Shown: positions 56,236 through 59,200 of the stretch, one piece after another | Layout of the letters: every line of letters begins with the position of its first letter | Position numbering within the stretch: position 1 is the first letter of the stretch | From: Candidatus Levyibacteriota bacterium | GTDB lineage: Bacteria; Patescibacteriota; Microgenomatia; Levybacterales; UBA12049 | DNA: 64,000 nucleotides | NCBI GenBank assembly: GCA_963716145.1 | Contig: OY970292.1 | Coordinates: 661,171-725,170 of the forward strand | Direction of reading: 5' to 3' | Notes under the pieces: generated by a model | The model's database searches: none | What the model was told of the DNA's origin: nothing | The model's input: the letters and a program-made list of their open reading frames with translations, nothing else | Translations under genes and position numbers: made by a program

Positions 56236-59200
56236 TAGTAAACCATTAGTACGGGTAGGCTAAATACTTTACAGTACTTACACTGCCCGCCTATCAACCT
56301 CGTAGTCTACAAGGGGTCTTTCAGATCTTACGATCCATCGAAATCTTATCTTGGAGGCGGCTTCCCACTTAGATGCTTTCAGCGGTTATCCGTTGGGAAT
56401 CTAGCTACCCGGCGGTGCTCCTTTATGGAAACAACCGGCACACCAGGGATTCCCTCATCCCAGTCCTCTCGTACTAGGGACAGAATCTCCTCAAATTTCA
56501 GCGGGCATACAGGATAGAGACCGAACTGGCTTACGCCGTTCTGAACCCAGCTCGCGTACCACTTTAACCGGCGAACAGCCGGACCCTTGGGACCTTCTCC
56601 AGCCCCAGGATGTGATGAGCCGACATCGCTGTCGTAATCACTTGTTACCAAGTGCGTTGACTATACCTTCATCCTCGTCCTCTCTTGAGAGGAGCTAGTC
56701 TTTTATAAAAGTTATAAATTTATTCAATCTAAACAGAACTTCTATCCTCATCTCTATCTACATCGGAAATCAGTCGATACAGAGTCCGTCAATTAATGAT
56801 CGGACTTCCCTCGGTATTGACCAATATCTGTTCGCAATATTGGAGTCCACCGATTTGAACTAGTATTTTTGTTATCCAACTGCACTCTCTAAATGCATTT
56901 TTGAATAATCAGACTTAGAAAATTTCTTTTCTAGGCGCCCCAATGTTGAGTTAAGGTGCCAAACCGCATCGTCGCTATGGACGCTTGGATGCGATCAGCC
57001 TGTTATCCCCGGGGTAGCTTTTATCCGTTAAGCTGTGTGCATACCACTATGCATCACAGGATCACTAAAACCTACTTTCGTACCTGCTCGACTTGTGGGT
57101 CTCGCAGTCAAGCTGGCTTATGCTATTACACTATCACGTCATGATTTCCATCCGTGACTAAGCCAACCATTGTGCGGCTCCGTTGCGTTGTAGGAGTCAA
57201 CCTCCCCAGTAAAACTGCCCACCAGACAATGTTCCTTCGCCCGTATTTTTATGCGGGTCGAAGTAATGCTTACTCATTTCAAAGAGAGGTATTTCACTGA
57301 TGACGAATCTCCCTCCTATTCTAAACAATTAAAATAAGCTTGCAAATGCCAAGCTACAGTAAAGCTCCCGGGGTCTTTTTGTCCATGTATACCTAGGCCG
57401 CGTCTTCACAGCCATCTCAATTTCGCCGGGTAAATGATTCAAGACAGTTACTTAGTCGTTCTACCTTTCGTGCGGGTCGGAACTTGCCCGACAAGGAACT
57501 TCGCTACCATAGAACAGTTATAGTTACTGCTGCCGTTTACTGGAGCTTAAATCCAAGACTGAACTCTTACGAATTGTCATCCGAGATTTTTGACTTACCA
57601 GCACTGGGCAGGTGTCAGCCCCTATACTTTGCCTTTCGGCTTTGCAGGGACCTGTGTTTTAGATAAACAGTCGCCAAGTAAACTTTTGTTGCAACCGCGT
57701 TCTTACACGCGGCAAGGCATCTCCCATAGGTTACGCCTAGATTTTTTGCCGAGTTCCTTAATCATCTTTCTCCCGTTCACCTTAGTCTACTCGACCAGCC
57801 CACCTGTGTCGGTTTGCGGTACGTTAAAATATGCGTTTTGGCGAGCCTTGCGGCCACCTTAATGAGGCTTTTCCTGGAAACTGAAATGTACCAAATTGTT
57901 CCTTATTACTAAGAAACTTTCTATCACAACTCGATTAAACACAATAACGGATTTGCCAATCACTACTATCTTACTGCTTAGACCCGCTAACACGGGCTTG
58001 ATTCTTCCAACTACGTCACCCCCTTAAAATACACATACCCTGTAGCTGAATATTAACAGCTTGTCCATCGGGCTAATCCCCTTTAACAGGAAGACCCTTA
58101 GGGCCGACTAACCCTCCGTTGACTTACATTGCGGAGGAAACCTTGGGCTTTCGGTGTGCCGATATCTCAGTTGCATTTCGCTACTCATACCGGCATTCTC
58201 ACTTCTATCCGCTCCACCAAACTTTACAGTTCAGCTTCACTGCAAATAGAACGCTCCCCTACCAACTTATAGAAATCTATAAAGTCTCCAACTTCGGCAA
58301 ATAGCTTAATCCTCGATAAATTTTCGGCGCCACGAACCATCCGCCAGTGAGCTGTTACGCTTTCTTTAAAGGATGGCTGCTTCTAAGCCAACCTCCTGGG
58401 TGTCTATGGATCATGACTTCCTTAAAAACTTAGCTATTATTTAGAGGCCTTAATTGGGAGTCTGGGCTGTTTCCCTTTCGACTCATCAGCTTAGCCCGAC
58501 GAGTCTGACTACTGTAATAATGATATCAGGTATTCGGAGTTTGATTGGCTGCTACCGCTTGCGCCAGCAGAAACCATTCAGTGCTCTACCCCCTGACGTA
58601 ATTTACAGCGCTATACCTAAATATATTTCGGGGAGAACCAGCTATCTCCGGGTTCGTTTGGCATATTGCCCCTAACCTCAAGTCATCTCAACCCATTGCT
58701 ACGGATACGGGTTCGGTCCTCCTCTCGATTTTACTCGAGACTCACCCTGCTCAAGGTTAGCTCACCCGGTTTCGGGTTTTATGACTGCTACTAATTTCGC
58801 CCAGTTAGGGCTCGCTTTCACTATGTCTTCCCAATGTAATTGGTTAAACTAACGCAGCAATCAAAAACTCACCGGTTCATTCTTCAATAGGCACGACATT
58901 ATCTCATTGCTGAGACTCTGTCTGCTTGTTAGCCAACAATTTCAGTTCTATTTCATCTCCCCTTCCGGGGTGCTTTTCACCTTTCCCTCACGGTACTAGT
59001 TCACTATCGGTAGATTTTGGTATTTAGTCTTGGACGTGGTCGGCCCAGATTCCCACAGAGTTTATCGTGCTCCATGGTACTTAGGTACAGTCTATCGCGA
59101 AATTTTCATTTCGCATACGAGTCTTTCACTCTCTATGGAAGATCATTCCGGATCTTTCTGCTACCAAAACTTACATCGAATATCGTCTGCCCTGCAACCC

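What the first reader, a model, noticed from the sequence alone, without database searches (positions are those of the whole stretch)
56629..56954. 23S rRNA gene interrupted by a ~326-nt ORF-less group I intron-like insertion in domain V
The conserved 23S sequence GGCACCU|CGAUGUCGGCUCAUC, contiguous in E. coli around position 2500, is split by 326 nt of AT-rich sequence. The 5' exon ends in U and the insert ends in G. Read in RNA sense, the insert contains GACUAG - hairpin (CUCCUCUC aaga GAGAGG) - AAGGUAUAGUCA. That corresponds to group I P7 5' strand / P8 / P7 3' strand (the R-S elements GACUA...UAUAGUC). rRNA introns are common in CPR lineages and rare elsewhere in bacteria. The position (~L2500) is a known group I and homing-endonuclease target region.
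Basis: partly seen in the sequence, partly recalled or inferred. Interest (0 to 1): 0.6.

Follow-up and report, generated by a model that had tools for sequence, protein, structure and literature searches.

The report
ORF-less group I intron in 23S rRNA
The 23S ribosomal RNA gene of this small-genome (CPR/Patescibacteria-like) bacterium is interrupted, at the heart of the peptidyl-transferase centre, by a 325-base self-splicing-type (group I) intron with no protein gene; this is a real but ordinary member of a class already catalogued in such bacteria.

Summary
The 23S rRNA gene (minus strand, 56227..59503) carries one large insert, 325 nt (56629..56953, not 326), exactly between E. coli U2500 and C2501. 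The 5' exon ends in U, the insert ends in G, and no ORF in it exceeds 30 aa.

It is a group I intron.
- Rfam Intron_gpI matches full-length at 38.9 bits. That is below the gathering score of 50, but E = 2e-6 for the whole window.
- P1 (U·G at the splice site), P10, P2–P9 and ωG can all be drawn.
- Eleven introns at the same site show strong covariation: 88% of cells paired against about 41% when slid, and 42 pairs with compensatory changes.

GACUAG is the 3' strand of P3. The true P7 5' strand is U[C]GACUG, 75 nt upstream; its closing pair covaries in 86 of 86 L2500 introns. Two hairpins (P7.1/P7.2) lie between P7 and P3', a subgroup IA trait.

Introns at this site occur in about 100 or more species representatives. 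About half are CPR-labelled; the rest include Actinomycetota, Chloroflexota, Planctomycetota and archaea. Many carry a LAGLIDADG gene in the P6 loop.

ORF-less group I introns in CPR 23S genes are already catalogued (PMC11270868). Verdict: a new member of a known kind, of low interest. Splicing itself is inferred, not shown.

The parts
56227..59503 (-). 23S rRNA gene (host gene), including the intron
   Evidence: Rfam LSU_rRNA_bacteria, 2162 bits, model positions 1-2925. The only indel longer than 34 nt relative to E. coli is the 325-nt insert after position 2500.
56629..56953 (-). Group I intron, 325 nt, ORF-less, inserted between E. coli U2500 and C2501 (L2500)
   Evidence: Boundaries. Intron_gpI scores 38.9 bits over model positions 1-253, with E = 1.5e-8 locally and 2.1e-6 for the whole window. 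No ORF exceeds 30 aa.
56951..56960 (-). P1 5' strand: exon GGCACCU (ending in U56954 = U2500) plus the first intron bases UAA
   Evidence: Pairs with UUGGGGCGCC. The U·G wobble at the splice site is invariant in 11 of 11 introns; there is one A×C mismatch.
56934..56943 (-). P1 3' strand / internal guide sequence UUGGGGCGCC
56941..56946 (-). P10 guide ACAUUG, complementary to the first six 3'-exon bases CGAUGU (56623..56628)
   Evidence: Read directly from the sequence. Relatives have ACAUCG or ACAUUG at the same place.
56917..56932 (-). P2 hairpin AGAAAA-GAAA-UUUUCU (GNRA loop)
   Evidence: Five of six pairs show compensatory changes and 100% of cells are paired (helix 3).
56872..56908 (-). 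P2.1-like peripheral hairpin (UUAUUC...UGCA-loop-UGCA...GGAUAA)
   Evidence: Present in the minimum-free-energy fold. Support from covariation is weak: 59-78% of cells paired (helices 4-6).
56858..56863 (-). P3 5' strand CUAGUU
   Evidence: Pairs with GACUAG at 56695..56700. 100% of cells are paired, with compensatory U-A to C-G changes (helix 7).
56811..56853 (-). P4 (UCGGUG/UACCGA) enclosing P5 (CCAAUAU/AUAUUGG)
   Evidence: Helices 8 and 9: 100% and 93.5% of cells paired, with five compensatory pairs in P5.
56784..56805 (-). P6/P6a short hairpin (GUCCG...CGGAC). This is where relatives carry the LAGLIDADG ORF.
   Evidence: Helix 10 (90% of cells paired). In introns with a homing-endonuclease gene, the ORF lies between the P4 3' strand and J6/7.
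56771..56780 (-). J6/7 plus the P7 5' strand: GUA U[C]GACUG (guanosine-binding helix)
   Evidence: Invariant in 11 of 11 introns. GUAnnGACU is found in 86 of 88 L2500 introns, and its closing pair covaries A-U 39, G-C 32, U-A 14, G·U 1.
56750..56770 (-). P7.1 hairpin (AUUUC...GAGAU)
   Evidence: Helix 13: four pairs with compensatory changes, 80% of cells paired.
56705..56745 (-). P7.2 hairpin (AUAGAAGUU...AACUUUUAU)
   Evidence: Helix 14: seven pairs with compensatory changes, 72% of cells paired. Present in the minimum-free-energy fold.
56695..56700 (-).
56672..56693 (-). P8 (UCCUC ... GAGGA)
   Evidence: Helix 15: 100% of cells paired, three compensatory pairs.
56658..56665 (-). P7 3' strand UAUAGUCA (conserved 'S' element)
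56639..56654 (-). P9 hairpin CACUUG-GUAA-CAAGUG (GNRA loop)
   Evidence: Helix 16: four compensatory pairs, 94% of cells paired.
56629..56629 (-). ωG, the last intron nucleotide; the 3' exon begins at C56628 (= C2501)
56057..56169 (-). 5S rRNA downstream of the 23S gene (operon context)
59786..59860 (-). tRNA-Ala(UGC) upstream of the 23S gene (operon context; no 16S in the window)

Best explanation
The insert is a subgroup-IA-like group I intron in the 23S rRNA precursor of a CPR (Levybacteria-like) bacterium.

Proposed mechanism:
1. After transcription the intron folds into the P1-P9 ribozyme.
2. An external guanosine bound in P7 attacks the phosphate after U2500. That U is held in a U·G wobble in P1 by the guide sequence UUGGGGCGCC.
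3. P10 (ACAUUG with CGAUGU) then aligns the 3' exon, ωG (G56629) replaces the external G, and the exons are ligated.
4. Ligation restores GGCACCU-CGAUGUCGGCUC in the central loop of the peptidyl-transferase centre.

The intron has no homing-endonuclease gene, so it cannot home by itself. It is best read as an endonuclease-free member of the L2500 family, whose other members carry a single-domain LAGLIDADG gene in the P6 loop. It was probably inherited vertically within its clade.

Shown here: the position, the boundaries, the fold with covariation, the homology to introns at the same site, and the absence of an ORF.
Inferred: that it splices, that splicing is autocatalytic, and how it was inherited.
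For: - Insertion site: exactly between U2500 and C2501, with U and G at the ends.
- Covariance model: Intron_gpI matches full-length, 38.9 bits, E = 1.5e-8 in the local search and 2.1e-6 for the whole window.
- Stability: the fold z-score is -4.8, and the minimum-free-energy fold recovers P1, P2, P4/P5, P6 and P9.
- Covariation in 11 same-site introns: 88% of cells paired against 39-45% when slid; 42 of 83 pairs have changes on both sides; 0 of 500 shuffles reach any of the measures.
- P7 closing pair: Watson-Crick or wobble in 86 of 86 introns, with three main pair types.
- Relatives: L2500 introns in other genomes reach up to 77.5 bits, above the gathering score.
- Mobility context: introns at the same site in other genomes carry LAGLIDADG_2 ORFs of about 190-220 aa in the P6 loop.
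- Inheritance: the six genomes whose 23S is 80-87% identical to this one all have an ORF-less homologue at the same site.
- Literature: rRNA inserts in CPR bacteria are reported as removed from transcripts, and 222 ORF-less group I introns were counted in CPR 23S genes (PMC11270868).
- Established knowledge: positions 2500-2506 lie in the peptidyl-transferase-centre loop, so a retained 325-nt insert should be lethal.
Against: - The Rfam score (38.9 bits) is below the curated gathering score (50). At that threshold the intron is not called.
- There are no RNA data for this organism, so splicing is not shown.
- P1 carries an A×C mismatch.
- P2.1 and P6a are poorly supported by covariation.
- Whether this is the only rRNA operon in the genome cannot be seen from the window.
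- The test for vertical inheritance was weak: intron and exon identities correlate with Spearman 0.32, and the pairs are not independent.
Confidence: 0.9

Rival explanations
1. The intron core is real but does not self-splice. Removal would depend on a protein cofactor: a host RNA chaperone, or a LAGLIDADG maturase encoded elsewhere.
For: There is no intron-encoded protein. Introns at this site in other genomes carry LAGLIDADG ORFs. Maturase activity of such proteins is documented for the Thermotoga 23S intron (PMC3984707). P1 has an A×C mismatch and the intron is AT-rich, 37% GC.
Against: All core helices are intact, and GNRA loops are present in L2 and L9. ORF-less homologues persist in at least six related genomes. 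No LAGLIDADG gene was noticed among the window ORFs that were scanned.
Confidence: 0.15
2. The insert is an intervening sequence of the RNase III type. It would be excised without ligation, leaving a fragmented 23S rRNA.
For: Such sequences are common in bacteria with reduced genomes and in CPR 23S genes (PMC11270868).
Against: The ends of the insert do not form the long terminal stem that RNase III needs; instead they pair with the exons as P1 and P10. The site is the peptidyl-transferase-centre loop, not the variable helices where the paper places these sequences (its sites 23IS2 and 23IS4). The group I fold is supported by covariation.
Confidence: 0.03
3. The insert stays in the mature rRNA, as an expansion segment or an unspliced intron, as was reported for the Simkania L1931 intron.
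For: An unspliced group I intron in a bacterial 23S rRNA has been reported (Everett et al. 1999, cited in PMC11270868).
Against: The site lies between U2500 and C2501, next to A2503-U2506 in the catalytic centre, which makes retention very unlikely (established ribosome structure). The ribozyme core, the guide sequence and ωG are conserved, which points to selection for splicing.
Confidence: 0.02
4. The insert is an assembly artefact: an intron from another organism joined into this 23S gene.
For: The source appears to be a metagenome-derived genome, inferred because only uncultured or MAG-labelled relatives were found. The insert's GC content differs from that of the exons.
Against: The boundaries are exact to the base and restore the universal sequence. 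The guide sequence matches the flanking exons. The closest 23S relatives carry the closest introns at the same site.
Confidence: 0.01

Closest known systems
Group I introns in CPR (Patescibacteria) 23S rRNA genes (Brown et al. 2015 as cited in, and Tsurumaki et al. 2024, PMC11270868)
   Same: Same type of host, same gene, and the same clustering around the peptidyl-transferase centre in domain V. The paper counts 222 ORF-less group I introns in CPR 23S genes. It also notes that introns with and without an ORF share a site and are very similar outside the ORF. Both patterns are seen here.
   Different: The text I could read gives no number for the sites between 1952 and 2593 (23IS9-11), so I could not confirm that 2500 is one of them. 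This particular intron and its GGGGCGCC-guide subfamily are not described individually.
Classical bacterial 23S group I introns (Thermotoga L1917/L1931, Simkania L1931, Coxiella L1917/L1951, Synechococcus and Thermosynechococcus L1917/L1931/L2593; PMC1995217)
   Same: Group I introns in conserved 23S sites, with single-motif LAGLIDADG genes in relatives. The cyanobacterial L2593 intron also has a P7.1/P7.2 extension and a short P2 and P5 (PMC1995217).
   Different: The insertion site differs: L2500 is not in that 2007 compilation. This intron has no ORF, and I found no detectable sequence similarity to those introns beyond the core motifs.
Subgroup IA group I introns of phages (Twort, T4 td; IA2) as described in PMC3428280 and PMC1995217
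   Same: Two extra hairpins (P7.1 and P7.2) directly after the P7 5' strand, plus P1/P10, U·G at the splice site and ωG.
   Different: There is no sequence match to any phage record or viral contig. The host gene is an rRNA gene, not a protein-coding gene. I could not decide between IA2 and IA3 with the tools available.
Rfam RF00028 Intron_gpI
   Same: Full-length alignment to the model with P1, P2, P3, P4-P6, P8 and P9 in register.
   Different: The score of 38.9 is below the gathering score of 50. The 46-nt P2.1 and the 79-nt P7.1/P7.2 region are treated as insertions by the model.

Membership tests
Group I intron (Rfam RF00028) | Covariance-model score at or above the curated gathering score (50 bits) | tested here: not met
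   38.9 bits, full-length, E = 2.1e-6 for the whole window. Relatives at the same site score 34.6-77.5 bits, so a sub-threshold score is common in this family.
Group I intron (Rfam RF00028) | The 5' exon ends in U, which forms a U·G wobble in P1 with an internal guide sequence | tested here: met
   GGCACCU pairs with GGGGCGCC. The U·G is invariant in 11 of 11 introns.
Group I intron (Rfam RF00028) | The intron ends in G (ωG), and P10 can form with the 3' exon | tested here: met
   G56629 is the last intron base. ACAUUG pairs with CGAUGU over 6 bp including one G·U.
Group I intron (Rfam RF00028) | Core helices P3-P8 and P4-P6 in the canonical order, supported by covariation | tested here: met
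   P3, P4, P5, P6 and P8 have 90-100% of cells paired, with 1-5 compensatory pairs each. All controls (shuffles and slides) are far lower.
Group I intron (Rfam RF00028) | P7 pseudoknot helix carrying the guanosine-binding G-C pair next to a bulged nucleotide | tested here: met
   U[C]GACUG pairs with UAGUCA. The closing pair covaries in 86 of 86 L2500 introns.
Group I intron (Rfam RF00028) | Guanosine-dependent self-splicing | not testable with these tools
   Needs in vitro transcription or RNA-seq.
Subgroup IA group I introns | P7.1 and P7.2 hairpins inserted after the P7 5' strand, before the P3 3' strand | tested here: met
   Two hairpins lie at 56750..56770 and 56705..56745, with 4 and 7 compensatory pairs and 80% and 72% of cells paired. 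The defining feature is taken from PMC3428280 and PMC1995217. The finer subgroup (IA2 or IA3) is not resolved.
Mobile (homing) group I intron | An intron-encoded homing endonuclease gene | tested here: not met
   The longest ORF in either strand is 30 aa. P6, where relatives carry a LAGLIDADG_2 ORF, is a 22-nt hairpin here.
RNase III-processed 23S intervening sequence | Insert ends pair with each other in a long stem; located in a variable helix; no ribozyme fold | tested here: not met
   The ends pair with the exons instead, as P1 and P10. The site is the universally conserved loop at 2500.
Group II intron / IStron | Group II domains V/VI, or a transposase gene fused to a group I intron | tested here: not met
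   No group II family appears even at E up to 10 in the local Rfam search, and there is no ORF.

The most novel reading that the evidence does not exclude
The GGGGCGCC-guide, endonuclease-free L2500 intron may have been kept by vertical descent through a whole Levybacteria-like clade (23S identity only 80-87%) because the host has put it to use. For example, it could act as a checkpoint or timer in 50S assembly at the peptidyl-transferase centre, or as a growth brake such as has been proposed for the Coxiella introns. The alternative is that it is a neutral leftover that cannot be lost precisely.
Probability: 0.05. Interest if true: 0.5.

Novelty: new member of a known kind. Interest (0 to 1): 0.15.

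Why it matters
Practical points:
- rRNA annotation and 23S-based phylogeny or primer design must remove the 325 nt.
- At Rfam's gathering score the intron is missed, as are several of its relatives. This L2500 family with P7.1/P7.2 is therefore probably under-annotated.

[quoted passage not shown] At a given site, forms with and without a LAGLIDADG endonuclease gene coexist. This fits the gain, decay and loss cycle of homing endonuclease genes.

It does not open a new question.

Tried and rejected
- Source record: I tried to identify it by exact protein look-up of RadA. The look-up of encoding contigs found nothing, either for the window ORF or for the 100%-identical P0001. The listing of cluster members gave no names. 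The host is therefore inferred only from named relatives and from 23S similarity.
- Literature on L2500: a search for 'L2500' returned only unrelated genome papers. The supplement of PMC11270868 holds the site map as images only, so I could not read whether 2500 is one of sites 23IS9-11.
I rejected it for three reasons: P3 covaries, the upstream P7 closing pair covaries, and most relatives lack a GACU next to P8.
- Custom covariance model: not built. The alignment had 441 columns, above the 400-column limit, and a model of about 330 positions would exceed the calibration limit.
- Rfam scan of 17 loci: failed internally. A 6-locus scan replaced it.
- Vertical against horizontal inheritance: comparing exon and intron identities gave only a weak correlation (Spearman 0.32). 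The test is confounded by further introns in some flanks, so it is inconclusive.
- Link to phages: none found.
- Chance matches: about 13 of the 119 pattern hits lie outside 23S genes, including all four cultured isolates. I excluded them.
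Full report
**What is there**

Rfam finds a complete bacterial 23S rRNA on the minus strand at 56227..59503. A 5S rRNA follows at 56057..56169, and a tRNA-Ala(UGC) precedes it at 59786..59860. There is no 16S gene in the window.

In RNA sense the gene reads ...GGUUUGGCACCU, then UAACUCAACAUUGGGGCGCC...GAUUACGACAG, then CGAUGUCGGCUCAUC.... In an annotated E. coli rrl the uninterrupted motif puts the U at 2500 and the C at 2501, with A2058 as a landmark check. A global alignment with E. 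coli shows one 325-nt insertion after 2500 and no other indel longer than 34 nt.

The insert is therefore 56629..56953, 325 nt. The insert is 37% GC against 47% for the exons. Its longest ORF on either strand is 30 aa.

**Is it a group I intron?**

At Rfam's gathering score nothing is called inside the 23S gene. With E-value reporting, Intron_gpI aligns full-length (model 1-253) to 56638..56963 at 38.9 bits. The E-value is 1.5e-8 locally and 2.1e-6 for the whole window against all families. The region folds much better than shuffles (z = -4.8), and the minimum-free-energy structure already contains P1, P2, P4/P5, P6 and P9.

A complete model can be drawn from the sequence:

| Element | Sequence |
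|---|---|
| P1 | GGCACCU\|UAA with UUGGGGCGCC; U2500·G at the splice site; one A×C mismatch |
| P10 | ACAUUG with the first exon bases CGAUGU |
| P2 | AGAAAA-GAAA-UUUUCU |
| P2.1 | peripheral hairpin |
| P3 | CUAGUU/GACUAG |
| P4 | UCGGUG/UACCGA |
| P5 | CCAAUAU/AUAUUGG |
| P6 | GUCCG/CGGAC |
| J6/7-P7 | GUA-U[C]GACUG with UAGUCA |
| P7.1, P7.2 | two hairpins after the P7 5' strand |
| P8 | UCCUC/GAGGA |
| P9 | CACUUG-GUAA-CAAGUG |
| ωG | G56629 |

**Relatives and covariation**

I scanned one genome per GTDB species for 'ATAGTC, 10-40 nt, G, CGATGTCGGCTC', that is, a P7 3' strand close to an insert that ends in G at L2500.
- About 13 are chance matches outside 23S genes, including all four cultured isolates.
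- The rest sit in a 23S context.
- In 88 of the 119 stretches the 5' exon also lay within the stored locus, so a whole insert could be cut out. One of these (L078) is a chance match. About 50 of the inserts are 230-450 nt with no ORF, and about 30 are roughly 800-890 nt.

Eleven of the ORF-less introns most similar to ours, ours included, were aligned and scored against my structure:
- 88% of cells are standard pairs, against 39-45% when the 3' partners are slid by 1-3 columns.
- 42 of 83 pairs have changes on both sides.
- No shuffle out of 500 reaches any of the measures.
- P2, P3, P4 and P8 are 100% paired. P5 and P9 are 93-94% paired, with several compensatory columns.
- P2.1 and P6a are weak.

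**Correcting the helix labels**

That pairing is compatible in the 11 sequences, but it shows no compensatory change.

GACUAG instead pairs with CUAGUU upstream of P4. Two columns there show compensatory changes (U-A to C-G, and U-A to C-G or U·G) with 100% pairing, which is P3.

Across all the L2500 introns, GUAnnGACU lies 40-125 nt upstream of AUAGUC, and most relatives have no GACU beside P8. The base two positions before that GACU pairs with the base after AGUC in 86 of 86 introns: A-U 39, G-C 32, U-A 14, G·U 1. This fixes the P7 5' strand at 56771..56777, with a bulged C in front of the G-C pair that forms the guanosine site.

The roughly 75 nt between P7 and the P3 3' strand form two covarying hairpins. 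P7.1 and P7.2 at this place are the mark of subgroup IA (PMC3428280, PMC1995217). I could not decide between IA2 and IA3.

**The Rfam threshold**

In a scan of six loci that hold L2500 introns:
- L007, a short intron of 247 nt with only about 40 nt between the two P7 strands, scores 77.5 bits.
- L081, L031 and L033 score 44-46 bits.
- L062 and L117 are not reported at E up to 0.001.

A score below the gathering cut-off is therefore usual in this family. It reflects the large insertions relative to the model, not the lack of a core.

**Mobility**

The long introns at this site hold an ORF of about 190-220 aa on the intron strand, with an LLGDG motif. A fragment of one matches Pfam LAGLIDADG_2. 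The ORF lies between the P4 3' strand and J6/7, that is, in the P6 loop.

Our P6 is a 22-nt hairpin with no remnant of an ORF. The intron cannot home on its own.

**Host and inheritance**

- The window's RadA is 100% identical to a protein on a 1,142,061-bp contig held by NCBI and ENA.
- Named relatives at 72-74% identity are Levybacteria, Levyibacteriota and Patescibacteria.
- Six scanned genomes have a 23S that is 80-87% identical to ours, while all others are 75% or less.
- All six carry an ORF-less homologue of this intron at L2500, at 64-76% identity.
- This fits vertical descent within a CPR clade. My distance test was too weak to prove it.
- Three of those six genomes are labelled 'uncultured Gammaproteobacteria' and one 'Acidiferrales'. 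Given the 23S similarity, these labels look wrong.

**What is known**

The 2007 compilation of bacterial rRNA group I introns lists L1917, L1931, L1951 and L2593 only (PMC1995217).

For CPR bacteria, Tsurumaki et al. 2024 (PMC11270868) report:
- inserts in 82% of 23S genes;
- 433 inserts classed as group I, of which 222 have no ORF;
- clustering around the peptidyl-transferase centre;
- the same site holding both LAGLIDADG-bearing and ORF-less forms;
- citing Brown et al. 2015, that the inserts are removed from transcripts;
- that CPR rRNA genes are usually single-copy.

The numeric positions of their sites 23IS9-11, which lie between 1952 and 2593, are only in figures I could not read.

**Verdict**

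The finding is real and correctly interpreted in outline. It is a new member of a known kind. Splicing is inferred from structure, conservation and position, not shown. Interest is low.

Noticed in passing
window 39400..41400: A 2-kb island of 60-73% GC sits inside a 41% GC window. ORFs there overlap on both strands and none has a Pfam hit. One + strand ORF (40522..41259) contains what looks like a lipoprotein signal peptide of the high-GC Gram-positive type (MQRRTVLTTVMLALAIFAGACGD). It could be foreign DNA or an assembly chimera.
   Followed up: partly
window 41552..41616 (+): A sub-threshold Rfam match to the type III hammerhead ribozyme: 35.8 bits against a gathering score of 48.5, E = 5e-4 for the whole window. 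The CUGAUGAG...CGAAAC core is intact and the cleavage triplet is GUU. It lies at the right-hand edge of the GC-rich island, just upstream of a glycosyltransferase ORF.
   Followed up: partly
window 56057..59860 and 59861..64000: The rRNA operon is tRNA-Ala(UGC)-23S-5S with no 16S gene. The 4 kb upstream hold protein ORFs (MsrA, a TMEM175-like protein, DUF1697, and a Tyr/Trp-tRNA synthetase fragment). The 16S gene is therefore unlinked, or more than 4 kb away.
   Followed up: partly
L048, L062, L113, L120 (also L096 compared with L046): These GTDB species representatives have a 23S that is 80-87% identical to this CPR-like window, yet they carry the NCBI labels 'uncultured Gammaproteobacteria' or 'Candidatus Acidiferrales'. 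L096 ('Gammaproteobacteria') and L046 ('Gottesmanbacteria') have nearly identical intron ends. The labels look unreliable.
   Followed up: partly
L032 (Coxiella endosymbiont of Ornithodoros amblus), L2500 intron of 832 nt: This intron is as long as those with a homing-endonuclease gene, but it has no open frame of 80 aa or more. It is apparently a decayed LAGLIDADG gene inside an L2500 intron of a tick endosymbiont.
   Followed up: no
L002, L050, L103, L105 (Nitrososphaerota/Thaumarchaeota and 'archaeon' MAGs): Inserts ending in ...AUAGUC...G at the same L2500 site occur in archaeal 23S genes (412-1292 nt where complete). A 2014 review stated that group I introns had not been found in Archaea (PMC3984707). 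I did not examine these further.
   Followed up: no
window 19490..23635 (-), 43924..47445 (+), 9325..12009 (+), 17001..19646 (-), 36175..38484 (-): Two very large ORFs (1381 and 1173 aa) have no NCBIfam or Pfam match. Two others carry only a Peptidase_G2 autoproteolytic domain. There is also a VirD4/TraD-like coupling ATPase.
   Followed up: no
L081 1618..1877 and L007 4354..4674: Other genomes with an L2500 intron have a second group I intron elsewhere in the same 23S gene (57 and 34.6 bits). The window's 23S has only one.
   Followed up: no
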